Shown here: piece by piece, positions 1-45,715 of the stretch
Numbering within the stretch: position 1 is the first letter of the stretch
How the letters are laid out: the number at the start of each line of letters is the position of its first letter
Origin: Rhynchopus sp. YZ270_cl-10
Lineage: Eukaryota
Length of the DNA stretch: 64,000 nt
Reading direction: 5' to 3'
Assembly (NCBI GenBank): GCA_964035575.1
Contig: OZ037841.1
Span: forward strand, 682,001-746,000
The notes under the pieces: generated by a model
What the model was told of the DNA's origin: nothing
The model's database searches: none
Seen by the model: the letters and a program-made list of their open reading frames with translations, nothing else
Position numbers and translations under genes: made by a program

Positions 1-1101
1 TTTTTCTGTCCAGGTTGAGGGGGGGAGGGTGAGGTGCAGCTCTGGGCAACGGAGAGCGGGGCCTCCCCTCGCCCCTCAAAAAAAAGAGAGAAAAAAGCGA
101 AAGTTGAAGATGCAAACGCTTCTGCGGATGGATACCCGCAAAAAGAAAATGCACAAAAAAAAAAATTGTCGGATTATGCCAGGGTTCCTACGTGAGAGCG
201 AGAACATGAAATTCTGGATTTTGCTTTTTTTTTCTCCTTTTTCCTGAGGTGGTTTTTTTATGATTTCTAGTGGGTTTCACTGTAGGACACACCACCAGTG
301 TGGTGAAATGGCCGAAATATAACACGGTTGCCACGAGGAGTTCCATTTAGCATTGTGAGCAATTCACTAGTGTGACCAAAATTTGTATCAATCAAGAATT
401 TGTCTCTTTTCCCGAAAATGACCCCACTACAGTGACGGTAGAGCTCGGAAAACCCGAAAAAAGGCAAAAAAAAAAACCCCCACCAAAAAAAAAGGAAAAA
501 AAGGAGAACCTAAAATTTGTAAATCCAGAATTTTGCTGTTTTTTTTCCGAGAACAAGGGGCTACCCTGGGTTGTGGGGAAGACCAGCAAACCTTGTCACC
601 CTTTCTAAACACACCAAGATGTGGCTTGTCAGAGCAAAGGTGATTCAGGTTTTGCTTTTTTTTTTAAAGATGATGAAACACGGCAAAAAAAAAACGTAGT
701 GTAGCCAGGTTTCCCTGTAGGGGGTCATATGCGAACAACTGAACCTCACCCTCTCGTGCTGAGTCACCTTTGGAGAAAGAAGTTATGAGTTTATAAGATG
801 AAACCCAAGCTTCATTTTAGTCACCTTTGATCACGAGAAAAGTAGTTGAAACGTGCGAAAACGCATCTCAGTCGAGTTCATGACACGAGAAAATAACCGT
901 AACAAGCCATTTTTCTCATCGTCCCCCCTGACTCCCCTCTGTGGGTCGACCCTTTCGGGCCTTTGGGGATCCAAAGTGTTTCGCTGAAAGCTTGGGTAGT
1001 ATTGTAGCGCACATCCCATGAGAGGGGATGTGATTTTCGCTGCAGCCGTCTTTTCTTTTCGTTCCGAAGGATTTAAAGCTACAACTTTTTTTAAATATTA
1101 T

Positions 1102-2097
1102 GGGTGGCACAACTTTTTTTTTTGTTTCCCGCTCGCTGACTCTGGGAAAAAAATGCGCGCGCGCGCAAAAAAAAAGTTTTTAAAAAAGTTTTGCCTGAAA
1201 AAAAGTTGTGGGAACAGGGTGATCCCGTGGGCTTTTTATATAAAATCGCCTCAGGGGCCCAAAAATGGGTGACCCAAAACACAGTTTTTTAGCATTTCCG
1301 GAATCCGTCCAGAAAGTGGTGGGGTCAATTTCGAAAATTGGACAATTTTTTGACCACTTAAATTTTTGAAAATGTGAGCCCGGTCACTACTACGTGGGTC
1401 CCAGTTTTGGCCAAAACATGCTGCTCAAAAAAGATCGGGTCTTTTGTTTGTGCGCTCAAAGCCGGGAAAACAAAAAGGTGAAAAAATGTGTTAAACTGAA
1501 GTACGGTTGTTGTGGTTAATTGAGTACTCAAAGAAAACAAACAAGCTTCTGTTTTTTTTCAATCCGTTTTGTTTGCCCTGCAGCGCTGCCTCCAATCTTT
1601 TTAGAATTGACAACAAGTTGTTTTATCAAAAAAATTTTCCCCTGAAAATTTTTCAGCCCCAAAACATGCCGCCATTGGCATTTCCGGAATCTGTCCGCAC
1701 TGTGGTGGGGTCAATTTGCCGAAATGGCCAAGTTCTCGGTTTTGGTCAAAAATGAGTGTGAGGTAAAGGGGCCAAGGTAAATCCCACAACTCAGATTTTC
1801 TCTCCCTGATGCTGAAACCATGAAAATGCGCGAAAGCACCGGCATTTGCATTTCCGGAATCCGCCCGTTGTGTGGTGGGGTCAATTTGCCGAAATGGAGG
1901 AGTTTTTATAAATTTTGGTCAAAATCGTGTACAACCCGGTGAAGAAAAAATATTTTCACTAAAAAAAAACCCCCAAATGTCCACCAGTACTCAGTACCCA
2001 GTACTGAAACTTTTTTTCCACCAAACTTTTTTTTTTTTGAATCTCGAAAAAAAAATGCGCGCGCGAGCGGGAAACAAAAAAAAAAGTTGTGCCACCC
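1102..2097. mobile_element. ~1 kb non-autonomous DNA transposon (MITE-like)
   Basis: 35-bp terminal inverted repeats GGGTGGCACAAC(T)nGTTTCCCGCTCGC at 1102-1136 and 2063-2097; three internal copies of GCATTTCCGGAATC..GTGGTGGGGTCAATTT (~1292, 1678, 1848); no coding capacity; TSD unclear. Confidence 0.75.
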
Positions 2098-2507
2098 TAA
2101 TGAGCCATTAGGTATTGAGTGTCCATTACCTATTCGCGCCCCCATCCTCGCTTCTGGCAGAGAGAGAAAAGAGCAAAAGAGAGATATCTCTGTAGATGCA
2201 CAGAAGTGTGTGGGGAGAGGGGGGCGCTCGTAGAGTAAAGACAAAGGGTCATAGACTTTCCAGCCACCTGGCGTGGCATTTTGCTTATAAGGAATGATCA
2301 CTATAAAAAGATAGTGGTAAGATGTGACTAGGCCAAGAGAGGCTTAGTACCAGACGCCTTTTTGAATGGATTAAAAATAAAAATGCATCAAAAGGCAGGG
2401 GAAAGGTGTATACAGTATTTGAGAGGGAACGTTCTCGTGCACATCAATCTTCATTTATTTTTTGCGGAAAATACAGGTGAAGGTTGATAAATAATAATAA
2501 CAATGTA

Positions 2508-2638
2508 TGGTGTGATCACCAAACGGATTCTCCGTGGTTCCCCCGAAGGTGCTCCGCAAATCTTAATATAGCCCGAAACAGTTCTCCGTGGTTCGTGGTT
2601 TCTCCCGTGGGTTGTCCGTACCCCCTGAAATCACACCA
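2508..2638. mobile_element. ~130-bp element with 9-bp TIR, copy 1
   Basis: TGGTGTGAT...ATCACACCA ends; near-identical copy at 12591-12724 with different flanks. Confidence 0.7.
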
Positions 2639-3879
2639 ATGCAGACGTCTCTAGGATGCATACGAGAAAAATAAAACATAGCGAGTTAGCTACCGATGCT
2701 TACTGCGTAGTCAGCGTCACGCCTACCTCGGTAGGTTACAGTGGGGGGGGAAAAAAGTAATATAGCGAGTCAAGGTAATACAGGCGTAGAAAAACCTTGT
2801 AAGGGCAGTAAAAAACGAAAAAAAAAACAAAAACGGGGCAGGTTCAAAAAGGCAAAAAAGTGGGTAAACAAGGGTGCCAAAAGGGGGGAACTTTAAAGAT
2901 GAACGTGCCTCCGCGCACGTATGCCCTAAAAAAAAGGGTGGGGTTTGGAGATTTGAATGTTGTCAATTGTTCAAGGTAGTGGAAGCAAAAAAAACAAAAC
3001 AAAAAAACAAAAACAAAAAAAAAAAATAGTTGAGTCGTAGACCCTGCCACTGCTTCTAATTTGAAAGAGAAGCAAGAAAAGTTGGTAAAGATGGACCTAA
3101 GCTTCTCTCTGTGCTTGGCTACCTGATCATCGTTATGAAATGCAAAACCCTCTCGTGACAGTGCCTTACACAATGCAGGTCGAGGCCAGCCCCAAAGGGT
3201 GGGTTAAGATGTAACAAACGAGTTGAGACACAATTGCGGTTTGACCACACAGCACCTCTTTGTTGATGATTTGCATCCGCCCCACAACGGAGACAAGCTT
3301 GAACATCCCAGAACCTCGCCACAGAGGGAGAGGAGTTGAAAGCGCAGAAACGCCACACCGGCGGACGCAGGGACACCGGTTCTGTTCTCCGCGGGGTTAT
3401 CGAACCCCAAAAGCACTTCATTGGTAGAGACATAGAAAGGGGGGGAAGGCTGGGTTTTAAAAGGACATTCTCTCCGACCTCTTACCCGCGAGGGGGTGCA
3501 GGTTTAGGTATTTTCTGGTGGTATTAAAAGGTTAGCCTTAGGGCCCGCATCTCCCTCTGTAATTTTAAACGGCGTGGAAAAGATAGTTGTAATTTTTTTT
3601 TTTTGAAAGAAAAGATGGACGCATCAGCAGAGAGGGGGGGGAAGATTTTTAGAAGCAAAAGAAATAAATTTCTCTTTTAAATTTTAGTTTAAACAACAGT
3701 GCACTCCGTATCCAAAACAGGGGGGGATGTCTGGGGGACAAAAAAACAGGGTTCTGTATTGAGAGAGAGGGGAGAAGAGAAGAAGTGTTGATAGTGCAAA
3801 ACGCCTCTGGGACGCAAGCACCTGACACTCCGTGGGGTTATCGGAACTGAAAAAAAAATCAGGGGGGGGGGGGGGGTTA

Positions 3880-5066
3880 GGGGATACGACTCCAGCCATT
3901 TTGGCTGGGACCAAACGCACGGAAAATTCATTTGGCATTATCTGGCCATCTCCAAGGCAACTGCGGGTGAAAAACACCCTCAGAGTGGGTCACAGGGGGC
4001 CTGTGGGTCGAAAAACGACCCAGAAGCCACCCCAGAATACAAAAAAATGGAAAAAAATAGTGAAAAACGGCTTTTTTCACGTTTTGGCCACTTTGGGCAA
4101 AATAGCGATTTTTCGAGAAAAAAATCAAAAACCGGGATATTTTTTGACATCACAAAGCCTCCTTTGGCACAAATATACCCCAAAAGTGGCCTGTGAGTCC
4201 ATTCCAACCTGTTTTGGACATATTTGACACTTTTGGAAGTGTTTTTTTGGTGTTTTTAGGTCAAAAAAATGCCCAAGACGTCCCCAAGACATCCCCAAGA
4301 CACTTTGCACACCCCCTGTTACGGTCATATTTTTTTCGTTTTTTTGCCTGAAACCCCCAAAATACCCCTCCCGGACCCCACATAGTCCCGAATATCCATC
4401 ACACACCCACTCAGAGTGAGTAGAAGCACCCCAAAAAAAATATTTTTTAAAGCCCTTCAACTTCAACATGGATGCTGCCGAAACTGAAGCACAATTTTAG
4501 GGCTTTAAAAAATATTTTTTTTGGGGTGCTTCTACTCACTCTGAGTGGGTGTGTGATGGATATTCGGGACTATGTGGGGTCCGGGAGGGGTATTTTGGGG
4601 GTTTCAGGCAAAAAAACGAAAAAAATATGACCGTAACAGGGGGTGTGCAAAGTGTCTTGGGGATGTCTTGGGGACGTCTTGGGCATTTTTTTGACCTAAA
4701 AACACCAAAAAAACACTTCCAAAAGTGTCAAATATGTCCAAAACAGGTTGGAATGGACTCACAGGCCACTTTTGGGGTATATTTGTGCCAAAGGAGGCTT
4801 TGTGATGTCAAAAAATATCCCGGTTTTTGATTTTTTTCTCGAAAAATCGCTATTTTGCCCAAAGTGGCCAAAACGTGAAAAAAGCCGTTTTTTCACTATT
4901 TTTTTCCATTTTTTTGTATTCTGGGGTGGCTTCTGGGTCGTTTTTCGACCCACAGGCCCCCTGTGACCCACTCTGAGGGTGTTTTTCACCCGCAGTTGCC
5001 TTGGAGATGACCAGATAATGCCAAATGAATTTTCCGTGCGCAAAAAATGGCTGGAGTCGTACCCCC
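3880..5066. mobile_element. Foldback element / long-TIR MITE
   Basis: Near-perfect inverted arms 3880-4456 and 4499-5066 (~570 bp) around a 42-bp spacer; ends GGGG(A/G)TACGAC; TA on both sides (3878-79, 5067-68) within a G-run. Confidence 0.9.
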
Positions 5067-6119
5067 TAGGGGGGGGGGGGGGGGGGGGGGGGGGTGTGTG
5101 AAAAGTTGGTAAGATGAACCTAAGTCTGGCTTAGTTACTGTGGAATGGGGTGGAAAAAGAGAAAATTTGAAAGGTGAATACACCTCGCTCGCACACAAAA
5201 TAAAAAAAGGGGGGAACAAATCGGGACAAGCAGCCCCGAGACATTCCTGGAGCAGGGGGAAAAACTTGACATATGAATGGAAACACCATCAGGGAAATAG
5301 CTTGGGTACTTTTACTGGTTTCAAAACCAGAACGAGCTGGTTTACTGGTTTGGGGAAAAAAAAAAAAAAAAAGTGGGATTCGGGATTCAGTTTTTCGCCT
5401 CCCCCGCACCACTTTCCCACTCACAGAAGAAAGCCTCACACGTAAGCGAACCCCTAAAAAGGGTTCATTGAGTGACTCTGTGGTGTAAAAAGCTGCATGT
5501 TTTGCACTATACCCAAATTTCTTTCGCCTGCGGCGCCACTTTATATTATTTTTTTGCTCCGCAAAAAAATAGAGTTTACAATGTCTTAGGGAACCCCCTT
5601 GCATTTTGCAGCCACAAATGCAACTTGACCAAAGCTGCAAAAAGTTGGTTGCAACAGCCCCTGCTTCTGGAAGACGTATTGACTTTGTACGGTTAGTGGA
5701 ACGTAAGGTGCAAGACCAAGCTCCGTTAACACAGGATTATATTCCATTTTCTTTGTTGTCTCGCAAAATTTACCCTTTGCCTCTCCACTCTGTGGTTGGC
5801 AGGGAGGCGCGGGCGAAGCGCGCGACGACCGCTTTCAACCGGGGAAATTTTTTTTCTAAACCAGCAAACCAGCAACATTCGAAAAGTGCACCTTTCAAGC
5901 TACTACCCTGAACACCATGCTTGGTCACACAAAAAAAAAAAAAGCACACCATCAAAATAACCACTTTGTAAGATGAATTCACCGCACCATCTTTTTCTAA
6001 TAAAGCAGTAAACATAAGAGGAGAGCCAATATTAATATTGAAACATTTTTTTTTGGGCTGTACTCCTCTCCTCCTTCGCAACACTTTTTTTGTTTCAAAA
6101 AGAAGAAAAAAAAATAGAA

Positions 6120-9100
6120 TCAAAACAGAACCCGCAAGCCGTTGGGAGAGGTTGGAACAATCCCTTTTGTTTTTGGTGTGGTTGACATCACATCTGCGGT
6201 TAGTGACGTGCTTGAACGACGCGGGGAGAGGTTCGTGGTGCCTGCACGCGAGCGTGCGGAGCGGCGCCTGTCACTTGCGCTTGGGCTGTACACATGACTG
6301 CCTAGGGAGTCCATAGAGCTGGCGACGCATGCCAACGAGAGAGGTGGGTTGTTTCCGAACGACAGCGACCTTACTCGACTACTGCGAGTCACCCAGGCAT
6401 TGCCGACGTTCTGGTCACGCCCCGATAGCGACGTCGACGACGACTTCGGTGTGAAGATCTCTGTCGACAGAGGCCTCTCTTTCGGCGTCTCTACCGGCGT
6501 CAGTGGCGTAAGGGAAGTGGCCATAGGCAGTGTGCTGTTGAACGCAGCACCCAGCTCCTCATCCGCTTCATAGTCGTAGAAGGAAGGAAGCTGGTTTATT
6601 TGGGACTGCCTTTTGTAGAAATCCTTCTGTGCTTGGTCACGTCGTCTTGTGATAAGGACGTATACTTCTGTTAAAAAGTCGAGCAACATTTTGATCAGCA
6701 GAATCGCGCCCGCAGCGACCAGCAAGGTGGTGCCAAAGGTGTAGTGCCAGCCGAGGGTGTTGTCTTCGTAGTGTGCCAGTGTGTGGAACGCCATGGCGGC
6801 GACCTGCATGGCGGTGCTGATGGAGAGCAGCACGGTGTCGCGCATTCTGGCGGAAGGACGAAGAAACATCTCAAGCAGCATCACAACAAGGATGACTGCC
6901 CCCTGTGCGCTCTTCATGTAGGCACACCCAAGCTGCGACTCAGGGCGCGTGGACTGGATCGCAGACAGCGCCAAAGAGGCGCACAGCTCGAGACACGAAA
7001 ACCACGCACACCCCTTCCTGTACGGCAGCAGCATGCAGATGTACCGCTGGCTCCACATGTACTTCCTCCCGGTGTTGACCCACTCCCCAGGCCCTAGGAC
7101 GAACTCTATTGGGTATGCACGCTTCTGCACCAGATGGTATGTTGCCCTCTTAGGGACGTTCCGGTGCATCAATTTGAACAGCATGTACGGCAACATTAAA
7201 CCCATGCAGGTCACAATGATGCCGACGAGGACGTGGACTGGTGATCTCGCGATGATGAGAATCCGCATTGCGCCGAGCGTGGTGCCTTGGTAGACAACGA
7301 AGAAGACGAAGATCGGTGCGGAGGGCACTCTGAGAAAGCCTTGCACGTCGAGGCCGTCAAAGAAGGTAGGGAAGATGCGAGGGCCCAGTATCTTCGCGAG
7401 CTGCATGGCGGCAAGGCAGATGAGGGTAGCGCCCAGGACAATCGCAAGGTTCCCCACAACAGCACCCATAGCCTCGCTGTCGTCAACAACAAGCCCTGTA
7501 GGGTTCATGATGCGCGACAGCCGGGTCGACTGCGTGCCCACCTCACACCGTGCGCTCATCAACCCAAGCCGCACCGCACCCGGTGCCCCAGCCCCAGCCA
7601 ACGCCCCCACACTCGCGACACCCGCCAGCACAACCCCACTCTCCGCAAGCTTCTCAGCCCCAGGGCTAATAGGCGACTGCGTCACCTCAAGGTCTGCACC
7701 AACAACACCCGGCTCCGGCTCCACCCAAGGCACAATCGTGGCGGGTGTCAAGGATTCAGGCAACGGTGCAGGGGTTGGTCCTGTTGTGGCACTAGGTAAG
7801 GCTGTCGGTGCTCCGGTGCCAACTGCCATACTCGGTGCTTCTGTGTCAGGAGGCGTCGGTGTGTTCGGTGCGGCGGTTGCGGCTGTGGTTGTGGGTTGTG
7901 TCTGCGGTGCGGCGGTCTGTGCAGCCGTCGGCAGTGGTGTAGCGAACCCTCCTGGTGCAGGTGTACCCGGCGGGGTGGGTGTGGCGAACCCTGCCGGTGT
8001 TGGCGAGGCAGGTGGCAGTGTCAGTGCAGGGGCTGCGGAAGGGGCTGTCGGGAGGGGTGTTGCTGGGAAGGGCGTCTCCGGTACTAGTGTTACCTGTGCC
8101 GGTGGTGCGGTCTGTGGTGGCTGTGTAGCTGTTGAGGCAGGCGGCAACGTAGCTGGCGTTGGTGTGCCTGGGGCAAGCGTTGTTGCAGGTGGCAGCGTCG
8201 CTGGCTGTGCTGTGAGCGGCAAGCCAGTAGCCGGCGCAGACGTCCATGGCGGAAACGTTTTCGGTGGTGAAGTGTCCGGCACAGCTGTCGGCAGCACTGG
8301 TGGGGTGAACGTGACTGGAGTCAACGTCGCTGGTGCTGGTGTCAATGGGCTCACTGTTGGTGGTGCGCTTGTTGGTGGTGCCGACGTTGGGGGCGCAGCA
8401 GTCAACGGAGCAGCCGTGAGCGGAGCAGATGTTAGGGGTGCTGGTGTTGGCGGGGACAGCGTCGGTGGTGCAATGGTAAGCGGTGGCGACGTTGGCGGGG
8501 CCACGGTTGGGGGCGCAACTGTTGGCGGTGCAACTGTCAGTGGCGCCGATGTCGGCGGGGACAGTGTCGGAGGCGCGTTGGTCAGCGGTGCGCTTGTTGG
8601 CGGTGCTGATGTTGGTGGTGCGCTTGTTGGTGGTGCAACTGTCGGTGGCGCCGATGTCGGCGGGGACAGTGTCGGAGGCGCGTTGGTCAGCGGTGCGCTT
8701 GTTGGCGGTGCTGATGTTGGTGGCGCTGCCGTTGGTGGTGCTGGTGTTGGCACAACCGTCGGCGGCGGCAGCGTCGCAGGTGCGGGGGTGGGTGGGGCTG
8801 GTGTGACGGCTGTGGCTGTCGGGTCGTCTACCTCCGCAACCAGCGTCGTTGTGCAGAGGTAGTCGTCCGCCCCACAGGCCATGTCGATCAGCCCTGGGCC
8901 CTCCTGGTACTCATAGCCTGCACAGAGCGCACCCTGCGGACGCACCCCTGCACTGTTGCCTGCTCCTGCATTTGTGTAGTACGACCCTCCAGACAGGTCG
9001 TGCGCAGCGTCGCCACACCACACCGTCGCCCCCGCAGGCAGCGCCACCCCACCAGCAGTCTCCCACTGCCCACCCACCTTCTTCAAATCGATCAGAAACT

Positions 9101-9902: not shown

Positions 9903-9904
9903 TC

Positions 9905-9990
9905 CTTGGGTGTGTGTTGTGTGGTGTGGGGGTGAGTGAAGAAGGTGGAGAAGGTGGAGAAGGAAAGAAGGGGGAGGGAAATGCGTTTTT
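9905..9990 (-). promoter_or_regulatory. Putative splice (trans-splice) acceptor with polypyrimidine tract
   Basis: C/T-rich tract then CAAG|GA ATG on the minus strand; an analogous CTCCAG acceptor at 17227-17228 precedes ATG 17213. Confidence 0.5.
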
Positions 9991-10958
9991 TGAAAGTTGG
10001 ATTTAGTGTAGCTCTTATTCGGTTTTCGCGATATTTTTTTGTTGTTGTGGCACAAAAAAAAAGAGGGATGAGTAGGGGAGGTAGGTTTGAGGTGGGGATG
10101 ATTTGAGAAATAAGTGAAAAATCTGAAAATAAATAAGGGGGTCAAATAATAATCTTGAAAGATGAATGCGTATCCCATCCACACATATCTTCAAGGGGAA
10201 ACAAAAACCCCTGGCTGAAAACTGAGGTGCTTATTCACATTCAGTACTGCCTTTTGGATTGGTTTTTCTTTCTTTTTTGAATAATTTTTGATTTTATTTT
10301 TTGAAAAATTGGGTCTATTAATGGCCATCTGAGAAGCTACATAAAACAAAACTATTCCTCCCCTTTTTTCCACTTCCCTGCACTCAAACTGAAGTTGTCA
10401 CTTGTAGACACTTCCGGAATGCAGGTATCAATGACCAAAGAAAGGGTCTGCAGACATACGAGCGAGTGATGCCAATTGATTTGAAAATATTCAAATATAC
10501 GGATATTTTCCTGCACTTAAACGCCCCGGGGGGGAAAAATGGGGTGTTTTCGAAAGCTGCGGAAGGTATAAAAAGACTTGGGTTTTCACACTTAAAAAGT
10601 CGAAATACATTTGTAATTTATATAAAGACTTGAGGGGAAACTGTGATCAAACAATTGGTGGACAACATATCTGTTGTTTTGGACAAAACAAGAGATATTT
10701 AAGGGATGTGTACAACACGTCAGATTTATGGTAGAGCATTTTTTTTTTTTCTTTGTAAAAAAGGGGGCCTGTTAGAGTAAGAAGAAAGAGCAGTTGAAAA
10801 TGTGCTAAAACGCATCTCAGTCGAGCTCAATCGTGGCTCAGTTCGTAAACGCGCACGTGCCATCCAATGCCATCGCTTTGGGGGAACGACTTGCCTTATG
10901 GCATCAGATGACTCCTTACGTAGTGGGGGGGCATCTACACGACGGTGATGTAACGGGT

Positions 10959-11170: not shown

Positions 11171-11198
11171 AATGTACTTACAAAAAAAAAAAGGAAAT

Positions 11199-11527: not shown

Positions 11528-11663
11528 CCCCCTTTCAGCCACACCAATAAACTTTTCTGTGGATAAGTTGTATCGTGTTTACATCGCTCTCACCAAAAAA
11601 AAATTCGGGCACGCTCAGATACGTTTTTCATTTCCTCCCCAAGGCAGTTGTCTCAAAAAATAG

Positions 11664-36800: not shown

Positions 36801-39800
36801 CCTGCCTCAGTCACTTCGAGTACCCCATTTGAACCAAACATCAAATGTGAGACGATCGTACTGAGGTTGGTAGGTGGTGGTGTGGCATCCTGCTGTGGAA
36901 GGGGTGTCAGCAGCGGACCTGCCGCACCCCTATTCTGCTGGTGTACAGGGGAGAACTCAGGAAGGCCTTTCGCAGTGCCCTCCTCGGCAGGTGTGGTAAG
37001 GTCGCAGAGTGAGACGAAGAGTTGTTCGGAAAACCCAGGGTTGCCCATGCATTTTTTGTGAATGACATTGAGAACGTCCTCTCGGACCAGAGCACCGGAG
37101 ATCTTGTTGAGAAGGTTCGCGGTGTCCTTTTTCGCAAGCGGGGTGAGGACCACTTTGGTTGCAGGGCCGTTCCTATCAAAGCAGTTGACGCCACCCCAAT
37201 CGCGGTAGTGTTCTTCCTTTACCAGGGTGCGTGCTTGGTCTTCTTCGTCTTCTTCCTCATCACCACGTTTTTTATCATTGCTCTCCACCCTTCGTGTTGC
37301 AATTACCGCGAAGTACGGTGAATTTCTCACAATATACGTTAATACCCGCAACGAGCTTTGATCGCACCAATGAATGTTATCTACTGTTAGCACTACTGGT
37401 TGGATTTTCGTTGCCGTTCCGTCCGGCGCCACGTCTAAGGTGTATTCACGCGAAAAAATGCCGGCAATGACCTCAAGCATGATGTCTGTTCTCTCGGAGT
37501 CTGAGAGCTTCATGGATTCTTCCGTTTCCTGGAGCTGTTCGCCAAGCGGGAGAATGCAGTTGAGGAGCGGGCGGAGGTGGATGTTGTTGTCGAAGCTGTC
37601 CAACTCTTGGGACAGCCATTCCATGGTGCGTTCTTCGAGAAGCCGTTTGATGAGCAGGGCGATCACGTAGTAGGGGGTGTTCTTCTCGAGGGGCGAGCAT
37701 TGGGCTGTGTGCACGGCAGGGCGGTTCTCGTAGTAGGAGCTTTGCCCAGCGCCGAAGCCGTGCTGGAGGTACAGCTTGGAGGCGCCGATGCCACCCTGCG
37801 AGGTCTCGGCAAAGCTTTGTATCTTCTCAAGCAGGAGTGTCTTGCCCTCGCCAGCATCGCCTTGGATGACTATCGTGCGCTCTGCAGGCGATGAATCCCC
37901 AAGGTCAATGATCTTCTCCGCATTCTTCTGAATACACAGAACCGCAGAAAACAAAACAATCATCTCCTTCTCGCGTCCAAATATCTTAAGTTCCTCCCCC
38001 GCAGGCTTGACCCCAGGTGTCGCAGTCGTAGGTGAGCCTACTGTCTCGCCGGCCTTGATGACAGGTTGGAGGGCAAGTGTAGGTTGTGATGCATGTGGAG
38101 CAGCGCCAGAAGACTTCTCGACAGTCCACACCTTAGTGAGAATCTTCTTGCCCTTCATCTTGACGTCCTGCCCGTTGTTGAAGGCAAACATATTGAAGGA
38201 TTGGCACAGCGAGCGGGTCGAGTCGTCGCAGCAGACTGTGGAGAGGTGCACGCCGTCTTTGCGGCTGGTCTGACGCATGGCAAACTGCATGACACGTGCC
38301 GCAGTGTTGACGCCGTCGCCCAATACAGTGTACTCACGGCGTTGCTTAGCTCCGCACATCCCGCAGTACACCTTTGACCGAGAAATACCGCACGATGCAT
38401 AAAAGTTTGGCAGAACGTAAGTCACCTTCTCTGAGGTGGTCTGGTTCAGCGCCTGTCCAGATGTGTCCTGGTGTGTGAAGTTCTCCCTCCACCGCTCCAG
38501 CTTTTGGACCAGGTCGTGCGCAAAGTCTACTGCACGGAGCGAGTCATCTTCGTGCGAATGCCCTGGCAGCCCAAACACACACAGCAGCAACGCGCCTTTG
38601 TCGTCGTAAAGAACTTTGTTGAGGATCCCGTCGCGCTTGCCAAGCTCAGTCAGGACAGACTGCACGACGTGCTGGAGGAGGTAGTCGATGGGGAGGGTCT
38701 GCTGTGCTTTGGACTCACGGTGCTTCTCCATGATGTTGAGGTGGATGAAGATGGTTGACACGATGCGAAGCTCGCCCTCCTCACCCCAGGTGTTTGTGAT
38801 TGTGTCGAAGAGAAAGCTTTTCACTTTGTATTTGAACTCGTCTTCGTTGCGCTTCTGCACCTCTGCGACAATACGCTCCTGCACCATCTCAGGCGCGTTC
38901 ACAAGAGTGGCATCACGCTTGAAGAAGAAGCTGTCCGCTGCTGAGGACACATGCTTATATGCTACGGGGTCCTCCGCCACGGTGCCCGCAAACCCTGCGG
39001 AGTAGATGGCCTCTGTCTTGATGGTACGCAGCTTGCGACGCGGCTCTTCCTTTTCCTTGGGGCTCACACCACCACCGTCGTCCTCATCATCGACAGGCTC
39101 TGTGAGCACCCCGTGAATAGCAGAGGAGAGAACCAACTGATCCATGATGGCGAGATCTACATTGTCAACGGAGTCTTTGACACCAGCTCCGGTGGTGACG
39201 TAACGCCATTCGTCTCGCACTCCGCCGACAATAGAGAATTTGATGTCACCTATGCCGATGGAAATGTGGACACCGAGACGGATTGGGTCGCTGTCGTCTG
39301 TGAATTGGATGTGTTCGTTCTTGGTGGCATCGAGGACCGCGATGGCACAGCCGTATGCCTTCGCTGCCAGGTCCATGAGAGAGCGTTTTGAGGATTCTTC
39401 GAACGTCTGCCGCGTCTGCCCGCCAGCACTCCGTATCAGATCCTCGTCGTGCTTCCATATCGCAAACAGCGCATCCCCAGAGAACTGCACCACATCCCCA
39501 CCACTCTCCCCCACAATCCGCAACAGAAGCGAAAAAAACGCGTTCAAATGAGTCGCAATACCATTCGAACCGTCTCGACTGTTCCGCATTGCCTCTGTGA
39601 TCGTTGTAAACCCGCACACATCAATAAAACACGTCGCCGCCGGGAACTCATACGCCTCATAAGCTACCCGCTCCCTCTCCGCAAGAATCTGCATCAACAC
39701 ATTCGGGATAAAACTGACCAAACTTCTCGTATCATAGGCCTTAACAGCCTCGAGGTCTCTCGACCGTTGGAGCTGTTGCTCAAACTTTGATGCAATATCT

Positions 39801-40222
39801 TCTACTGGCGGAGGAGGTGGTGGTGGCATATGTGGCAACGTCATCCCCAACACTGTTGAATCTGCCATGGATGACATCGAGGATGTGGACAGATGTTTTG
39901 CGGATCCAGGGATAGGGGAGGTAGGGATTTCTGGGCTGTCGATCGCGCCTGAGGGAGAACCGACTACTTCGCTGGTTGGGAGAAGTGGAGAGCCGGAGGC
40001 ACCTGTGTCAGGGGGTGGCAGTGGTGGTGGTGTGCCCTTTGCGCTAGCATCGTAGCGTCTCAGATCTGCCACCAAGTCCTCCTCTGCAGCTACCGCCTGT
40101 TGAACCCTTTCGGCTTCACGAAGCCGGTCCTCATACCCCTGCATGGGCGAGACCTTCTTCTTCTTCGCCGCCTTCTTCACCTCCTCAAACCCCTCTTTCG
40201 GAGCATTAAGCTGTGTTTCCAT
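33803..40222 (-). CDS. Soluble adenylyl cyclase-like protein (ADCY10/sAC architecture: two class III cyclase domains, P-loop STAND NTPase, helical/TPR-like C-terminus; 2139 aa)
   Basis: C1 FIDVCGFT, GDVVQFSGDA; C2 NKVLYDDKG, REYTVLGDGVNTAARVM; Walker A GDAGEGKT, Walker B VLTVDNIHWCD; GNP motif; no TM. True start could be a downstream Met. Confidence 0.92.
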   Translation of the reverse strand: METQLNAPKEGFEEVKKAAKKKKVSPMQGYEDRLREAERVQQAVAAEEDLVADLRRYDASAKGTPPPLPPPDTGASGSPLLPTSEVVGSPSGAIDSPEIPTSPIPGSAKHLSTSSMSSMADSTVLGMTLPHMPPPPPPPVEDIASKFEQQLQRSRDLEAVKAYDTRSLVSFIPNVLMQILAERERVAYEAYEFPAATCFIDVCGFTTITEAMRNSRDGSNGIATHLNAFFSLLLRIVGESGGDVVQFSGDALFAIWKHDEDLIRSAGGQTRQTFEESSKRSLMDLAAKAYGCAIAVLDATKNEHIQFTDDSDPIRLGVHISIGIGDIKFSIVGGVRDEWRYVTTGAGVKDSVDNVDLAIMDQLVLSSAIHGVLTEPVDDEDDGGGVSPKEKEEPRRKLRTIKTEAIYSAGFAGTVAEDPVAYKHVSSAADSFFFKRDATLVNAPEMVQERIVAEVQKRNEDEFKYKVKSFLFDTITNTWGEEGELRIVSTIFIHLNIMEKHRESKAQQTLPIDYLLQHVVQSVLTELGKRDGILNKVLYDDKGALLLCVFGLPGHSHEDDSLRAVDFAHDLVQKLERWRENFTHQDTSGQALNQTTSEKVTYVLPNFYASCGISRSKVYCGMCGAKQRREYTVLGDGVNTAARVMQFAMRQTSRKDGVHLSTVCCDDSTRSLCQSFNMFAFNNGQDVKMKGKKILTKVWTVEKSSGAAPHASQPTLALQPVIKAGETVGSPTTATPGVKPAGEELKIFGREKEMIVLFSAVLCIQKNAEKIIDLGDSSPAERTIVIQGDAGEGKTLLLEKIQSFAETSQGGIGASKLYLQHGFGAGQSSYYENRPAVHTAQCSPLEKNTPYYVIALLIKRLLEERTMEWLSQELDSFDNNIHLRPLLNCILPLGEQLQETEESMKLSDSERTDIMLEVIAGIFSREYTLDVAPDGTATKIQPVVLTVDNIHWCDQSSLRVLTYIVRNSPYFAVIATRRVESNDKKRGDEEEDEEDQARTLVKEEHYRDWGGVNCFDRNGPATKVVLTPLAKKDTANLLNKISGALVREDVLNVIHKKCMGNPGFSEQLFVSLCDLTTPAEEGTAKGLPEFSPVHQQNRGAAGPLLTPLPQQDATPPPTNLSTIVSHLMFGSNGVLEVTEAGAGHTTRALGERYFISFQQGVDVSKLPLPDRIEGVITGRVDRLSPQLQNLLKVASVIGSTFSLALLQDVLEKNGVAYSVSDLVHKLESLGFLVIVKSGGGLRKVGSEKSGVHSMISGGSATSLVKKVSDKILRAYEDSPVFGFRIQLMQDVLYSMLLANERRQYHRHVAEYLEQSFVAGVCIDPCILLHHFTEGDLVSRSLIYLGKTADVEYLKNNMEKALVYYQKAITIAKKMDTHDTLKPKGGAFYHWVSVSAFLLYQSGDMDGAARHADMLLKSVAGNDLLRSDLWHGKTDFNSDDTCCTIRRGGPQSKVHFCFDTRYGFEGGAHSDDKGMGLSCHLHILNMLDWKEYLKMTQARSEVYIGERNMKNANATSASSSFMNNWKLPSSQPQYSTHSLSGPAGGSAQSAYRSITVTASASNAPSSHSPAVHDKHLLMSSPPPNLRQRRTRRERHRSTPVEGAPGDHSSVLCGLTYYHGEAEEVSVVDVFLARHVLAMVHHSKGCVPLFRHHALRGLLLYEHYLTMVEKERANCQQVLSSLDRNSNTPKSNAAESIRERVFWSERLRRMETQLRSLRDGFNTVGKSKRGALVMFLHTYNPANIWYGLGSNRRRTRDDAVAAMEGAVSRYPNDSATIEKFGIVLCTYYSEPKTVQTYVSSHNQMSSDGDLATTALYYLTVDVYLCFTGARNTKKGGSSGRWGHLLELAKFANFSNNSRCEAYSVLFSIYIDVLILGGDRMERGSKLAEITRQKLKKSQKLITGDMLSHDSDRERPQPDGARLYSFGKGFSLNSCISDRQIVFLLQCISAVGMAATSVVAPPVQGEQNVGIIGGSGGDDALRFLVSAVVLLDEARQFPATFVVLVSLHAFVEAVTHASVAATTVAMSDLRHGAKKALSIMSEAVKEIPSWRPALLLMEALVALWLRQGVANGSVRSSLRSCYDHANSLNMPYFAARSLAILTTIERDTSVKKDNRRLTEELFEKVGTTPELQKHFCSGELKL

Positions 40223-41302
40223 AATGGAGAGAAGAGAAGAGAGGAGGGGGGGAAGGGTGAAGAAGAAAAAAATGGGGGGAAAAGAGAAAGACCGTCCCCA
40301 CCCTTAACAGGTGGGAAAAACGGTGTTTGTGTACTGCAACCAAGACAAAGTGGTTGTGAGAAGCGTGGGGGGGGGAAAGGGGGGGTGGGGGGGAGTGTGT
40401 GTGTGTGGGGAGGGGGCTGTGGGAGGGGTGGGAAATGGGTGTTTTGAGTGAGAATGGAACCAAAAAATGGGGTGGTATCCAAATGGCTGTGTTGTTCATT
40501 CACGGGTGGGTGTTTTTTTGGGAAGCAGAATACATCAGCATGCAGCTGGTGAGCTGACGGCAAAGTGCAGCAGTGGCGCTCCACCATGAGGCTACCCAGG
40601 GCTCTTTGTTGGGTGCATTTCCCATTCCCGAGGAAGCATTACCACAACCTGTGTGCAGTCGGAGCATGCTGGTGTGTTGCGTCCCTCATGGATCGCTTTG
40701 CCCACTGCTTCCGTTGCAGCCGTGGCTGTCTGCTGTCACTGCAGGGTTCTCCGTGCAGGTTGGGCAACCACACAGAACTTCGCATGACGTCCAGTCCCCA
40801 CCACGTCGCCTTGTGTGTCAGGTCCGAACACACTGTCTGCGCCCCAACAGTCAGCGGCATCCCATCCCAAGTGCACCAAAGCAAGAAAGCCAAATCGTTC
40901 CCATCAAATCACCCACAACCCACAGCACAAAGAACCAAAGCTGCGCAGTGAAAACACCGTTCTGCCTCTAACAGGGGCATCACACATCAATGGTCAACCC
41001 TGTCCCACAGTCCAAGCTCCTCTCGAACAGGTTTTTGGTGATGCTCACCACCGGTCTTCCGACTGTGTTGTCCTTTCAGGAGCTCTCGCAAGCGAAAGGA
41101 CTCCGGGTTGGACGAACACATCAACAGACACACCACAGTAGATTGCGAGTCCCCACCCTGCCCACCCTGCCCATCCCAACTCCACCGTGATGCACAGGAT
41201 ACAACCTCGTCCTCAAGACAGTGCTCGTCGCCATCTCCCAGCACCTTTTCAAATGTGACCAAAACAAAGAACCGTTCAGCTTTCAATCCACCATCTCAAC
41301 CC

Positions 41303-43250
41303 CTTCACATGATCTCTCCCAACCCAACAGCCAACGACACTGCACCCGAAGCCTTCCTCCACATTTGTGCTGCACAGACAACACACAGCACAACCCCAGC
41401 CGCTGGTGGGTCAACACAAGATCGACACACCTGCGCGCAAAGCCAGAAGCTCTTCACACCTGCATCGCACACAGAAGCGAACGTGCAGTGTGGCAACCCA
41501 ACCCAGAGATCTCCCTTCTCACAGGCGCTCACTCAACCATGCGAACGTGCAGCGTACCCCACCCACCCTCGCAGCACAGAGTGGACAACAAATCAACACC
41601 TCTGAGCTGCCACACAAAAGACCCAACCCACCCAAACATAAAGACAAACAGATGCATTCAGTAGACCATCGTGAAACGTATCCGGTTATAATCAGTGTCG
41701 ATCAGCGAGCTGGGATTATGATTTGTCATCATGTCAATGCAGGCAGCAGGACTCTTCTCAAAAACTTCGGCTGCTTTGAATGCAAGAAAAAAAGTTGTGT
41801 CAATTCCCACCCACCTACCCACCCCCTGCTTTTTTTGGAACCAGGCCACATGTCTCTGCTTACTTCTGTTAAAAGCGAACACAGGCAAAAAAGAGGTTGC
41901 TCTCTCCTCCTGTCGCTTTCCTTCGCTAAGACTCAGGTAGTATCCTACCCGCCTCACTTCCCTTCTCCCGCCACCCACCCACCGTATCTATCGGACTACA
42001 CATCACGTCACAGATGATCATCAGACCACCACGCACAACACGCTACCAAGTGAAGACATGCGTTGTTGTTTGGGTGTCTGGCATTGCTCGAAATTCTGCA
42101 CCACCCGCACACCTCACCCAACCCACCACGAAGGTCCACACTCCCTCATCGCCCTTCCTTCGGCAGAACTGCCTCTCCCACCTCCCTTGCTTCCTCGACG
42201 AAACGTTGCATCGCATGGCACATCACAGAAAAGCACCTCTTGTCTCGTCCATCCTCACATATAGTGCAGACAACACACAGCACAACCCCAGCCGCTGGTG
42301 GGTCAACACAAGATCGACACACCTGCGCGCAAAGCCAGAAGCTCTTCACACCTGCATCGCACACAGAAGCGAACGTGCAGTGTGGCACCCCAACCCAACC
42401 CAGAGATCTCCCTTCTCACAGACGCTCACTCAACCACGCGAACGTGCAGCGTACCCCACCCACCCTCGCAGCACAGAGTGGACAACAAGTCAACACTTCT
42501 GAGCTGCCACACAGAAGACCCAACCCACCCAACCAGGACCACCTCTTACTTTTTGGAACCAGGCCACATCTCTCTGTTTCCTTCTGTTCAAAGCGAAAGT
42601 GAAGGTCAGCCGTCATAAGTCCTCTGCACCCGACAGCAGAAGGTGTACAAATAAACTGAGACTCACCGGACCGCAATGTGAGGGAATACGAGGACATTCG
42701 CATCCTCCCTCCTGTCCCAACCCCTACCACCCACCCCGGCTCTTCACATGATCCCTCTCCCAACCCAACAGCCAACGACACTGCACCCGAAGCCTTCCTC
42801 CACATTTGTGCTGCACAGACAACACACAGCACAACCCCAGCCGCTGGTGGGTCAACACAAGATCGACACACCTGCGCGCAAAGCCAGAAGCTCTTCACAC
42901 TTGCATCGCACACAGAAGCGAACGTGCAGTGTGGCAACCCAACCCAACCCAGAGATCTCCCTTCTCACAGACGCTCACTCAACCACGCGAACGTGCAGCG
43001 TACCCCACCCACCCTCGCAGCACAGAGTGGACAACAAGTCAACACTTCTGAGCTGCCACACAGAAGACCCAACCCACCCAACCATGAAGACAAACAGATG
43101 CATTCAGTAGACCATCGTGAAACGTATCCGGTTATAATCAGTGTCGATCAGCGAGCTGGGATTATGATTTGTCATCATTTGCATGCAGCCACGGGGAGAC
43201 GGAGGTTGCTCTCTCCCCTCCTGCAGCCTTCCTTCGCTGAGACTCAGGTA
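41303..43250. repeat. Local mosaic duplication of a CA-rich unit
   Basis: ~430-bp copies at 41303-41732 and 42742-43178, a ~270-bp partial copy at 42267-42534, plus shared short blocks (~41832/42550, ~41918/43229). Confidence 0.85.
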
Positions 43251-44109
43251 TCCCCCCTTCCCCACCCATCCACCTACTCACCCCAATCCTATAGCTAGCA
43301 AATTATATGAGGGAGATCCTTTTTTTTTAAAAAATGTACTTTTATTCCTGCCACGTACTCCTCCTTGGTCTTTGTACTTCCCAAATCACGTAGGGGAGGA
43401 AACAAAAAAAGGTAAATTTGAATGTGCAAACGCCGTTCTGACGTCTGCACCGCAAAACAGGAAAAGGGTGGAACGCCAATACCAACCGCATGGGCGTGCG
43501 CGCGAGTTTGGGGAGGGGATGAAATAAAATAAGAGTTGGGTCGATGAAAAAAGCCTTTCGTGCTTCCGTCACCTTCTGTATAAAAAGCGGGGGTGGTCTT
43601 AACCTCCACACCAATGTGCACACCCTCTTCGACTCACCACGCCTACAGTTTCTTTGGTGAGGAGTGAGGAATTAAACCGCTGTCGGCAGCACACTTCACT
43701 TGAACGTTGTCCTCCCCACCCGCTTTAAAAAAAGGAAAATAAGGGTGGTCAGAAAAGAGACCGTGAAAAAAAAGTGCGTTTTTGAAAACATAAACTGGAA
43801 TCGTTGCTTTCGCCAACCACGACCGCGGAACGGCAAGACAGGCTTGTCTTGCAGTGCACGTGGTTGTGATGTATTAAAAGAGAAGTCCGAAAGTGCAAAC
43901 GCCTCACCGTATATAGGCAGACGTAGGGTATCGTGTTTCTCCGAGGGGTTATCGAATCCCCTATTAAAATGCAGTGGCATAGACGAGCCAATTCCTCTAT
44001 AAAAATACATTTTCTAGTCGCACACAAAGGGGCAAAAGGGGGCAAAAAAGGGGCAAAAAAAGGGGCAAAAAAAAGACACGCAGATTACAAAATAAAGTGA
44101 AAGTTGAAC

Positions 44110-45715
44110 ACCACATAGACTGTGTGATGGAGTGCCTCTCCGGATACAGGGAGGTCGAGAGGTTTACGCTTCAGTACTTCCGAAGCATGAAACCGCAACA
44201 ACGACTGCGTAAATAAGAAGAGGGAGGGAGGGGAGAAACTGCAAAAACAAAAAACAAAAAAAAAAAACAGTAAAGAAAAAGAACGGTTGAGGAAAAGATG
44301 CATACGTTCTTAGCAGTAACGAATACATCTTATTTAAAAAAAAAAAAAAATGTTTACAAGATGACCTTAAGCCTCTCGTGCTTGTCACCTTGAAAAAAAA
44401 AGTGAGGTTGACAGTGCAAACACCTCTGGGGTGTGTGCACTGACAAACAATGTGGAGGAAAAAAAAAATTACAGCAATGCCATCTGGAAGCATAGTGCAA
44501 CCATTTGGCAAAGATGTGAATGGTGACTCCGGCATCACAGCACAATATATTCCCACGAAATCAATACATCCCGGGTGAGACGGAGCTCTGCAGAACAAAT
44601 GCAGCGAACTAAAAGGGAAAGGGAGGCGGAAGGGGTGGAGAAAAGGATGGGGAAGGGGGAGGAGGGGGAAATGAAGATCGACATGAGCAGGGGGTCGTCA
44701 TCAGTCATTGGCCTCCTATTTATTTATTTTTTTGAAAAATGTATACATAACAAAACGTATTTGTGCGAAAAATAAGAAATGTGTGTTTTAAAAAAATAGC
44801 TTATAATAAATGAACTAAGCCGATTCGTGGTTTAGTTCCCTGAAGGATGTGAAAAATCACATGCGACGCACATAAAAAACCAAGAACCCACCTTTCGGAA
44901 CGTGGGCCCTTCGGCGCAAAAAAAGTAAATCTTGTTGGCAGGTGTATATAGGGGAGGGGGGTGGATGTGAAGAACATAATTTGATATCTTCCGAAAAAAA
45001 TAAAAACTGTGTCTGCTGTCACCCTGTTTTCTTCATAAGTAAATGTGAGAGCTGGGGCAACAATCTGCAAAAGCACAGTCATTCAAAAGGCGAAAACGCA
45101 GATAAGTGAGAAAAAAGTTGAATGAAAAAAGCAACAATAAGAACAATGGTTTATACTTTTTTTGTTTTTTTTTTTTTTTTTGAAATTTAAAAACAAACCA
45201 GACAGATTCTAACCAAACCATCCATTGATAACGTTGCCCAAAATAAGACAAATACTCTCTATTTGTTGAACACAACACGCCTCGAGGTGACACACCTTGT
45301 GTGCGCAAAAGAGAAATGACTCACAGGGAACACACTTTATCAAACCCACTGTTGGTATTCTTTGCCGGTTTATAAGCTCTTTAGGAAGAAAAAAGACGTA
45401 ATAAAGAAGCAAACGCTCGCAAAAAAGCGCGCACCAAACGTGATGACCACAGCACTGTACTAATTCAGCATAATGCCACACGACACAAGCGCTACGAGCT
45501 AAGTAGAAAGTTGTGCTATCTGGGGCGGAAGAGAGGAGGGTGAGATGGTGCGGTGGCACGCACCACTCCCGGTATCATAGCAAAAGTCAATTTGGTATGA
45601 AATAAGACAAAACAATAAAAGCCAGCGGTGTGCAAACTTCTCACGCAAGGGAAAGCATATCCCCCACGTCTCCTCCGCTCTTCCTCTGCCCTTCACGAAG
45701 CTGCCGCCTTGGCAT
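44110..45715 (-). CDS. Putative micro-exon gene, unknown product (partial model)
   Basis: Exons 45325-45378, 45219-45258, 45008-45064, 44892-44930 and one starting at 44839 are bounded by GT..AG and join in frame (AYKPAKNTNSGFDKVCSLEYLSYFGQRYQWMIVAPALTFTYEENRVTADTIYFFCAEGPTFRKGTKPRIG). Further candidate exons near 45644-45715, 45420-45515, 44473-44610, 44110-44204. No homology recognised. Confidence 0.4.

What the first reader, a model, noticed from the sequence alone, without database searches (positions are those of the whole stretch)
101..45650. Dense family of orientation-locked RNA hairpins on the transcribed strand
Seen: about 35-40 related motifs (by-eye count) in the non-coding DNA and none noticed inside the long CDSs. 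Nearly all share one orientation (apparent exceptions ~2319, ~21405). On the minus strand, which carries all host genes, they share GAGG(C)..TTCA(T/A)CT followed by a U-rich tract. Stems pair better on the minus strand because plus-strand A-C mismatches become G-U pairs (AAGGUGA/UCAUCUU at 11921 and 44357; GCGUCU-GUUG-AGGCGU at ~27114). Stem sequences vary while pairing persists (CTAA/TTAG vs CTCA/TGAG at 736; ACGTGC/GCACGT at 2903; CACC/GGTG at 44421), and the loop ACGAGAG is conserved. Inference: a structured cis-element acting in pre-mRNA (splicing, trans-splicing/polyadenylation or stability signal with a protein-bound loop), possibly a domesticated retroposon analogous to Leishmania SIDERs. 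I do not recognise it as a described family.
Basis: partly seen in the sequence, partly recalled or inferred. Interest (0 to 1): 0.85.

Follow-up and report, generated by a model that had tools for sequence, protein, structure and literature searches.

The report
Tiny one-way hairpin repeats, diplonemid
The DNA between the genes of this marine protist (likely a diplonemid) carries dozens of related 35-120-base hairpin repeats that all face the same way as the genes; they are likely decaying copies of miniature mobile elements that jump as single strands, not RNA signals selected one by one.

Summary
Covariance models find 33 copies (E<0.1), all on the gene-bearing minus strand; about 25 weaker copies were added by eye. 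None lies in a CDS or in the ankyrin-gene introns. Public DNA contigs show a sharply bounded ~35-bp unit with A/T-run flanks at hundreds or more loci. The two 'exceptions' are internal loop inversions with normal flanks. The host is likely a diplonemid.

The RNA cis-element reading is weakened. In type II the stems diverge as fast as the loop (16-19% vs 19%). Private changes give G-U no more often than A-C (14 vs 16). The first AG downstream lies at no fixed distance. The wobble bias sits in the subfamily masters, and DNA folding shows the same strand preference.

Best reading: non-autonomous mobile hairpins with a fixed 3' end (…AAC, then a T-run), a 5' end that pairs with a subterminal arm, and no target duplication. 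They are likely moved as single-stranded DNA by an HUH enzyme into one strand. They are not Helitron2 or SIDER members by the tests run. No enzyme, empty site or RNA data were available, and only one gene cluster was seen.

The parts
11909..11961 (-). Type II copy, near the genome-wide master (core 11921-11955)
   Evidence: CM R1 E 1.7e-10, training; sharp depth block, 1044 contigs
22743..22794 (-). Type II copy
   Evidence: training
44346..44396 (-). Type II copy, directly beside type I copy 44398
   Evidence: training; RNA z -4.6
22109..22160 (-). Type II copy
   Evidence: training
724..775 (-). Type II copy with a compensatory A-U to C-G change
   Evidence: training
783..832 (-). Type II copy
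   Evidence: training
25854..25905 (-). Type II copy
   Evidence: training
11256..11305 (-). Type II copy
   Evidence: training
3076..3130 (-). Type II copy
   Evidence: training
23285..23337 (-). Type II copy
   Evidence: training
43529..43580 (-). Type II copy
   Evidence: training
44795..44847 (-). Type II copy
   Evidence: training
5099..5145 (-). Type II copy, loop shortened
   Evidence: E 0.044, not in training
23034..23082 (-). Type II copy, loop shortened
   Evidence: E 0.065, not in training
32920..32971 (-). Type III copy (other upper stem, same 3' end)
   Evidence: training
23110..23160 (-). Type III copy
   Evidence: training
23442..23487 (-). Type III copy
   Evidence: E 0.04, not in training
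24749..24800 (-). Type III copy found by both models
   Evidence: not in training
26229..26288 (-). Type I copy
   Evidence: CM R3 E 3e-15, training
22298..22356 (-). Type I copy, high copy number genome-wide, A-run flanks
   Evidence: training
27474..27576 (-). Type I long form: extra hairpin, and a 5' end that pairs with the 3' subterminal arm
3326..3426 (-). Type I long form
32600..32702 (-). Type I long form
43876..43960 (-). Type I long form, partial
27096..27162 (-). Type I long form, partial
3778..3848 (-). Type I long form, partial, next to the fold-back element
44398..44445 (-). Type I copy, nearly perfect stem
   Evidence: training
43408..43455 (-). Type I copy
   Evidence: training
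12972..13030 (-). Type I copy
   Evidence: training
11305..11353 (-). Type I copy
   Evidence: E 1.7e-5, not in training
26679..26725 (-). Type I copy
   Evidence: E 7.6e-5, not in training
26555..26612 (-). Type I copy
   Evidence: E 0.0014, not in training
94..144 (-). Type I copy
   Evidence: E 0.0039, not in training
21294..21334 (-). Type I-prime copy (ACGAGA loop); sits just upstream of the likely SL acceptor of the ankyrin gene (~21248)
   Evidence: by eye, below model threshold; depth 202,000 at 21328 in X1; fold
3128..3175 (-). Type I-prime copy
   Evidence: by eye
2307..2365 (-). Type II copy with inverted inner hairpin, flanks in normal orientation
   Evidence: CM minus E 0.5; inner part aligns better reversed, score 36 vs 26
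21372..21440 (-). Type I-prime copy with inverted inner hairpin, flank in normal orientation
   Evidence: reversed score 27 vs 16; flank read by eye
11705..11815 (-). Very abundant ~110-bp long module with a related 3' end and terminal pairing; partial second copy 25962-26050
   Evidence: depth ~800,000 vs ~70 in X1; link to the family by eye
830..45935 (-). About 20 further weak copies picked by eye (near 845, 2401, 2895, 5168, 5970, 10157, 10793, 12897, 21480, 24367, 25160, 25820, 26147, 32545, 32850, 33065, 44295, 45275, 45931)
   Evidence: none reaches E<0.1 in the CMs

Best explanation
These hairpins are several related, very high-copy families of 35-120-bp repeats between the genes, all facing one way, and they are likely non-autonomous mobile elements that an unidentified HUH-type (rolling-circle or peel-and-paste) transposase would copy as single-stranded DNA and paste into T-runs of the gene-bearing strand. 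Shown: sharp ends; T-rich flanks on both sides; a shared 3' end (stem arm, 4-6 nt, AAC, pyrimidine run); a 5' end complementary to the 3' subterminal arm in short and long forms; masters that pair best on the gene-bearing strand; copies whose private changes ignore the G-U versus A-C distinction. Inferred: the imperfect hairpin is the enzyme's strand-specific handle, and that keeps Watson-Crick compensation among subfamily masters. The lock would arise at insertion, because the non-template strand of the polycistronic unit (or the lagging-strand template of a fork moving in a fixed direction) is the exposed single strand. After insertion most copies would decay neutrally, while a few may be co-opted as polypyrimidine tracts.
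For: Boundaries and copy number: depth 460,062 inside 11921-11955 vs 73 in the flank; 1044 contigs laid, 500 with unrelated flanks whose consensus is an A-run on both sides (same for type I). Depth is not a copy number, so hundreds of loci is the safe floor.

Neutral decay of copies: type II stems 16% and 19%, loop 19% divergent; single changes G-U 7, A-C 11, with 10 and 10 expected; type I G-U 7, A-C 5.

Polarised masters: 4 consensus G-U pairs and 0 consensus A-C among 23 modelled pairs. Double WC-to-WC changes 7 vs 1.7 expected. DNA parameters also favour minus (5 of 5 pairs; 24 of 33).

Lock not explained by target bias: A-runs 60%, purine tracts up to 73%, P(33 of 33) = 7.5e-5 even at 0.75. 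None of the 15 best-supported contig joints changes strand (891 not shown).

Precedents (passages read): Helitron2/Helentron insert in T-runs with asymmetric inverted repeats (PMC5148889, PMC3627910, PMC4067079). IS200/IS605 use one strand's imperfect palindrome and are oriented by the exposed single strand (PMC3201880, PMC5371812, PMC5027513). D. papillatum encodes Helitron-like ORFs (PMC10161547).
Against: No transposase with these ends is in the window, and the genome could not be searched. No empty site for any copy was seen. The separate 3' hairpin behind the 3' ATIR that defines Helitron2 is missing, and 35-55 bp is far shorter than the elements described in the papers read. The type I 3' arm is more conserved (8%) than its 5' arm (18%) or tail (25%), which could reflect selection or model anchoring. 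Disruptive 'other' single changes in type II are fewer than expected (16 vs 25.8). Some of the 7 compensations may come from the model-fitted alignment or shared ancestry. The TSD test excluded low-complexity repeats and the copies are old. Only one gene cluster was seen, so a lock to transcription cannot be told from a lock to replication or from regional clustering. I found no paper showing a transcription-locked eukaryotic HUH element.
Confidence: 0.42

Rival explanations
1. SINE-like retroposons. The sense-strand RNA hairpin would be the handle for a reverse transcriptase, and the U-rich tail would prime on an A-run of the template strand; families differ 5' and share the 3' end.
For: Fixed 3' end with variable 5' part; G-U-rich masters; tandem co-oriented neighbours (15 of 57 gaps at most 100 bp); oriented retroposons exist in Leishmania (PMC2689281, passages); D. 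papillatum has many LINE/SLACS ORFs (PMC10161547).
Against: No TSD excess. No poly(A) on the folding strand. 5' ends are set by pairing rather than random truncation. No tRNA, 5S or 7SL head (ARAGORN 0 genes; Rfam nothing at any copy).
Confidence: 0.2
2. One reading: a selected pre-mRNA cis-element (processing, stability or anti-termination signal) whose loop or bulge binds a protein, spread along the polycistronic spacer.
For: 33 of 33 on the gene-bearing strand; absent from CDSs and introns; excess compensation in type II; pyrimidine fraction 0.73 downstream vs 0.54 at random; the copy at 21300 precedes a likely SL acceptor; D. papillatum has long 3' UTRs (PMC10161547 section 7).
Against: Private G-U 14 vs A-C 16. 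Type II loop as divergent as stems. Type I covariation not above shuffles (64 of 500). Two copies carry flipped loops. First AG spread widely. Density uneven: 0 in 17203-18680, 22 in 21182-27780. The likely acceptors of genes 1 and 2 and of the introns have no hairpin.
Confidence: 0.2
3. Ordinary cut-and-paste mini-MITEs that insert either way, with the opposite orientation then purged by selection.
For: Short terminal inverted arms (one copy has CAGTG/CACTG ends, 44398); the genome is rich in true MITEs; two weak opposite-orientation candidates (33640-33676, E 0.49; ~21915-21945 by eye).
Against: Arms are imperfect and asymmetric, with a conserved unpaired 3' tail; no TA or other fixed TSD; near-total purging of 40-bp intergenic inserts is implausible, and this orientation is the one that adds cryptic pyrimidine tracts.
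Confidence: 0.08
4. The lock is regional (one replication direction, or insertion beside earlier copies) and only coincides with gene direction here.
For: One cluster only; all dispersed non-TIR repeat pairs in the window are direct; IS200/IS605 orientation follows replication (PMC5371812).
Against: The lock holds over 46 kb and five genes, across gaps of 4-10 kb; this rival gives no origin for the element.
Confidence: 0.1

Closest known systems
Non-autonomous Helitron2/Helentron elements (HINE, DINE-1)
   Same: Insertion in T-runs with variable terminal Ts, no TSD, a 5' inverted repeat at the very end paired to a subterminal 3' repeat, alternative 5' ends, very high copy number (PMC3627910, PMC4067079, PMC5148889, passages).
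   Different: 35-120 bp; arms 5-9 bp and imperfect; no separate 3' hairpin behind the 3' arm; tail 4-15 nt, not 20-30; no RepHel partner seen; strict co-orientation with genes not found described.
IS200/IS605 ends and PATEs (Y1 HUH, peel-and-paste)
   Same: Imperfect palindrome active on one strand, short conserved motif 3' of the stem foot (TCAA in IS608, PMC3201880; TCAA or AAC in many copies here), orientation set by the exposed single strand (PMC5371812, PMC5027513).
   Different: Prokaryotic; two ends each with a hairpin and a guide sequence; no guide-cleavage pairing shown here; no TnpA.
Leishmania SIDER1/2 retroposons
   Same: Euglenozoan, intergenic, high copy, degenerate, biased orientation in directional gene clusters (PMC2689281, PMC2323293, passages).
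   Different: SIDERs are ~550 bp with a 79-bp ingi signature, an A-rich 3' end and TSD vestiges, are about 4:1 sense, and are antisense in spacers. These are ten times shorter, U-tailed and 33 of 33 one way.
Bacterial REP / ERIC palindromes (recalled, not from a call)
   Same: Tiny imperfect intergenic palindromes in hundreds of copies, strand-polarised, spread in trans.
   Different: Bacterial; no sequence relation tested; no RAYT-like gene seen.
T. cruzi SIRE (VIPER-derived)
   Same: Short non-autonomous euglenozoan repeat; a YR element with the same split-repeat layout lies in the window (PMC6681497, passages).
   Different: The window's YR-element repeats show no similarity to the hairpins, and that element lies in the opposite orientation.

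Membership tests
Helitron2/Helentron non-autonomous (HINE) | 5' ATIR 0-2 bp from the 5' end, complementary to a subterminal 3' ATIR (8-15 bp) | tested here: inconclusive
   Asymmetric pairing present in short and long forms, but arms are 5-9 bp and imperfect
Helitron2/Helentron non-autonomous (HINE) | Separate 3' hairpin downstream of the 3' ATIR, 20-30 bp to the end | tested here: not met
   Only a 4-15-nt unpaired tail follows the arm
Helitron2/Helentron non-autonomous (HINE) | Insertion in TT/T-rich target without TSD | tested here: inconclusive
   T-rich flanks on both sides and no TSD excess, but no empty site seen
Helitron2/Helentron non-autonomous (HINE) | Autonomous RepHel partner with the same termini | not testable with these tools
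   No genome held; none among the window ORFs scanned
Helitron1 | 5'-TC, 3'-CTRR, hairpin 10-12 nt from the end, A/T target | tested here: not met
   3' tails read AAC then pyrimidines, no conserved CTRR
SIDER / ingi-related retroposon | A-rich 3' stretch and TSD vestiges on a ~550-bp element | tested here: not met
   35-120 bp, U-rich tail on the folding strand, TSD 3 of 33 vs 10.7% control
SIDER / ingi-related retroposon | 79-bp 5' signature | not tested
   No tool-supplied signature sequence was at hand; most copies are shorter than the signature
tRNA/5S/7SL-derived SINE | Pol III RNA-derived head | tested here: not met
   ARAGORN 0 genes; 4 Rfam matches at E<=1, none at a copy; a B-box-like hairpin in long forms is by eye only
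IS200/IS605 end or PATE | Two hairpin ends with guide and cleavage tetranucleotides; TnpA | tested here: inconclusive
   One-strand hairpin and a 3' TCAA/AAC motif present; no guide pairing or second end shown
Selected structured cis-regulatory RNA | Stem and loop more conserved than neutral, with private changes biased to G-U | tested here: not met
   Type II stem 16-19% vs loop 19%; G-U 14 vs A-C 16 pooled
Selected structured cis-regulatory RNA | Covariation above controls | tested here: inconclusive
   Type II/III score 0.279, 0 of 500 shuffles; type I 64 of 500; relatedness not controlled
Selected structured cis-regulatory RNA | Fixed position relative to SL, poly(A) or splice sites in RNA | not testable with these tools
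   No RNA run to lay; proxy test (first AG) shows no fixed distance
Known Rfam family (H/ACA, ribozyme, SECIS, snRNA) | Match to a curated model | tested here: not met

The most novel reading that the evidence does not exclude
A eukaryotic counterpart of bacterial single-strand 'peel-and-paste' or REP elements: 35-55-bp hairpins that a diplonemid HUH enzyme inserts only into the strand displaced by polycistronic transcription, coating the genome with one-way marks of which some are now used in mRNA processing.
Probability: 0.22. Interest if true: 0.85.

Novelty: new variant of a known kind. Interest (0 to 1): 0.52.

Why it matters
Diplonemids are abundant marine protists whose repeats are largely unclassified (PMC10161547). 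A repeat this small, this abundant and this strictly oriented would point to a transposition route that reads the direction of transcription or replication, which I did not find described for a eukaryote. Even if neutral, the copies would mark the direction of polycistronic units in assemblies without RNA data. They also add pyrimidine tracts that trans-splicing could co-opt. The case also shows that a G-U strand bias in a repeat consensus is not evidence of selection on RNA structure.

Tried and rejected
Whole genome not held, so no genome-wide orientation test. No RNA holder listed. The ESM Atlas call did not complete.

Collection scans: the type I 22-mer gave 0 in viral contigs and metagenome contigs. 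The type II 20-mer gave 0 in genome contigs and 2 overlapping metagenome loci, L001 and L002, with no hairpin and no CM hit, rejected as chance.

The second read-laying was meant to give a genome-wide substitution spectrum but listed no variants. RNAalifold gave no consensus on the MAFFT alignment A3, so structures were set by hand. Model R2 had a mis-registered lower stem (seen); its pair counts were discarded and the model rebuilt as R3.

Rejected readings: splice or SL acceptor as the general role (no fixed AG distance); H/ACA or C/D snoRNA, hammerhead, tRNA-like (no boxes or core by eye); derivation from the YR element's repeats (no similarity); integron attC-like site (GTT/AAC at one end only, by eye; attC consensus recalled). 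A sub-threshold Pfam 'Toxin_cobra-type' hit lies in an antisense shadow ORF of the Cys-rich gene and was not pursued.

Earlier-findings look-ups by place, sequence and Diplonema words were empty.
Full report
Host. The window is eukaryotic, with five host genes on the minus strand: two paralogous Pro/Thr-stalk membrane proteins (6120-9878, 13773-17202), an ankyrin gene whose frame stays open with GT-AG introns near 20519-20133 and ~19718-19124 (the second donor is ambiguous), an adenylate-cyclase/AAA protein (33803-40222) and a Cys-rich gene with an open frame of more than 5385 aa. The only named eukaryotic homologues are from Diplonema ambulator (34%) and D. japonicum (26%), so the host is likely a diplonemid. 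D. papillatum has unidirectional gene clusters, SL trans-splicing, long 3' UTRs, 52% repeats and some Helitron-like ORFs (PMC10161547: passages, outline, sections 7 and 9). A search of its 7 text-held supplementary files found no 'hairpin', 'stem-loop' or 'palindrom'. I did not list the files, so the supplementary text on repeats may not have been among them and may bear on novelty.

Observation. Profile searches on both strands confirm the family. nhmmer gave 12 type I and 12 type II hits at E<0.01, all one way, and 0 in a reversed control. CM R1 gave 18 of 24 matches at E<0.1 and CM R3 16 of 31, all minus; the union is 33, of which 25 trained the models and 8 are new. About 25 weaker copies were added by eye. 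Counts per non-coding block were 14, 8, 0, 0, 0, 22, 5 and 9, the zeros being the ankyrin downstream region and its two introns. A regex gave 16 minus vs 2 plus, with 1.6 and 1.3 expected. Strand bias of the background is too weak to explain this: A-runs 117 vs 77, long purine tracts 19 vs 7, and P(33 of 33) is 7.5e-5 even at 0.75. The two reported exceptions are not reversed insertions: their inner hairpin aligns better reversed (36 vs 26; 27 vs 16) while the flanks keep the usual orientation. Two weak candidates for truly opposite copies remain (33640-33676, E 0.49; ~21930 by eye).

Anatomy, read on minus. Type II is a T-run, a 6-7-bp lower stem with one G-U, a 6-bp upper stem, a 7-8-nt ACGAGAG loop, a 2-nt 3' bulge, a 4-6-nt tail ending AAC, and a T-run. 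Type I has a 5-bp lower stem, a pyrimidine internal loop, a 5-bp upper stem with two wobbles, a variable top and the same kind of tail. Long forms of 90-110 bp add a hairpin and a new 5' end that again pairs with the 3' subterminal arm. AAC follows within 16 nt in 25 of 56 copies, 17 of them at the same two offsets, against 20% in the background. Laying public DNA contigs shows a sharp block at 11921-11955: depth 460,062 against 73, 1044 contigs in X1 and 873 in X4, and loose ends whose consensus is an A-run on both sides (likewise for type I). Summed contig depth is not a copy number; several hundred loci for this one subfamily is a floor. None of the 15 best-supported joints changes strand, and four link separate hairpin units in the same orientation (891 joints not shown). 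A-runs of 5 or more flank 17 of 33 copies on the left and 16 of 33 on the right, against 28% of random 35-mers. There is no excess of target duplications: 3 of 33 vs 10.7% (low-complexity repeats excluded).

Is the fold selected in RNA? The minus strand folds better in 38 of 47 curated cores, against 308 of 600 random segments (269 favoured plus). For the 33 model hits it is 25 with RNA and 24 with DNA parameters, so the bias does not identify the molecule. Against their consensus, 14 type II copies (4 type III hits left out) differ at 16% and 19% of arm positions and 19% of loop positions. Single changes at Watson-Crick pairs gave 7 G-U, 11 A-C and 16 other, with 10, 10 and 26 expected; double changes restoring a pair were 7, with 1.7 expected. 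Eleven type I copies gave 7 G-U and 5 A-C, and one compensation; covariation was not above shuffles, whereas the type II/III alignment was (0 of 500). Results against my reading are the deficit of 'other' changes in type II and the more conserved 3' arm of type I (8% vs 18%). The first AG downstream has quartiles of 13-41 nt (random 5-32). The likely real acceptors have pyrimidine tracts and, for gene 2, a TACTAAC, without a hairpin; only the copy at 21300 sits where it could serve an SL acceptor.

Mechanism. Structure kept among masters but not among copies, sharp ends, a subfamily series and very high copy number are what a mobile element gives. The missing duplication, the T-run target, the 5' end defined by pairing and the fixed short tail fit single-strand HUH chemistry better than target-primed reverse transcription. 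Helitron2 and Helentron derivatives have asymmetric inverted repeats and insert in T-runs (PMC3627910, PMC4067079, PMC5148889, PMC11417382; passages). Rep-mobilised elements insert in a fixed orientation at their target (PMC10288648, passages). IS608 is cut only on the strand carrying its imperfect palindromes, ends in TCAA 3' of the stem, and is oriented by the exposed single strand (PMC3201880, PMC5371812, PMC5027513; passages; PATEs in PMC7290912, passages). I infer that the exposed strand here is the non-template strand of the gene cluster or a lagging-strand template. The enzyme, the intermediate and the target choice are all inferred. I put 0.42 on this route, 0.2 on a SINE-like route, 0.2 on a selected cis-element and 0.18 on the remaining two rivals.

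Comparison. It works like a minimal Helitron2 derivative or a PATE/REP, but fails the Helitron2 3'-hairpin test and the Helitron1 CTRR test. It fails the SIDER size, tail and TSD tests; SIDERs are also only about 4:1 sense and antisense in spacers (PMC2689281, PMC2323293; passages). Rfam and ARAGORN give nothing at any copy. Ten literature searches (listings read, 13 papers opened) showed no description of such a family in diplonemids; subscription papers and repeat databases were not searchable. The REP/ERIC comparison is recalled.

Verdict. A real, apparently undescribed and strongly polarised mini-repeat family, most likely selfish and largely neutral. The one-way lock is the surprising part and rests on a single gene cluster. 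New variant of a known kind; interest 0.52.

Noticed in passing
window 27765-32508 (+): Young tyrosine-recombinase retroelement: Phage_integrase ORF, a second long ORF with RT/RNase H-like motifs by eye only (no Pfam hit), split direct repeats A1 = A2 (148 bp, 100%) and B1 = B2 (83 bp, 100%) in Ngaro/VIPER order, between T-runs, antisense to the host genes.
   Followed up: partly
window 3878-5068: 1.19-kb fold-back palindrome, 95.5% self-complementary, between G-runs; fold-back element or assembly artefact.
   Followed up: no
window 1097-2101, 13065-13738, 23550-23641, 12167-12273, 11377-11556: TIR-bounded MITE-like elements without model hits; the one at 11377-11556 is skipped in other copies of its flanking repeat (joints), i.e. 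it has an empty site.
   Followed up: partly
window 11705-11815 and 25962-26050: Module with summed contig depth ~800,000 vs ~70, among the most abundant repeats in the stretch laid.
   Followed up: partly
window 10955-11170: 11-bp tandem array with an inverted block.
   Followed up: no
window 41303-43191: 270-450-bp tandem units upstream of the cyclase gene, 96-99% identical, free of hairpin copies.
   Followed up: no
window 46074-64000 (-): Cys-rich repeat membrane protein with an open frame of more than 5385 aa and no passing Pfam family in the parts scanned.
   Followed up: no
window 2508-2640/12591-12726, 11200-11244/12396-12440, 12461-12527/17625-17688: Other dispersed non-TIR repeat pairs are all direct as well, so co-orientation may extend beyond this family.
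   Followed up: partly
window ~716 and ~21265 (-): Two copies are followed by the same short ATGACCCC..CAG acceptor-like ending.
   Followed up: no
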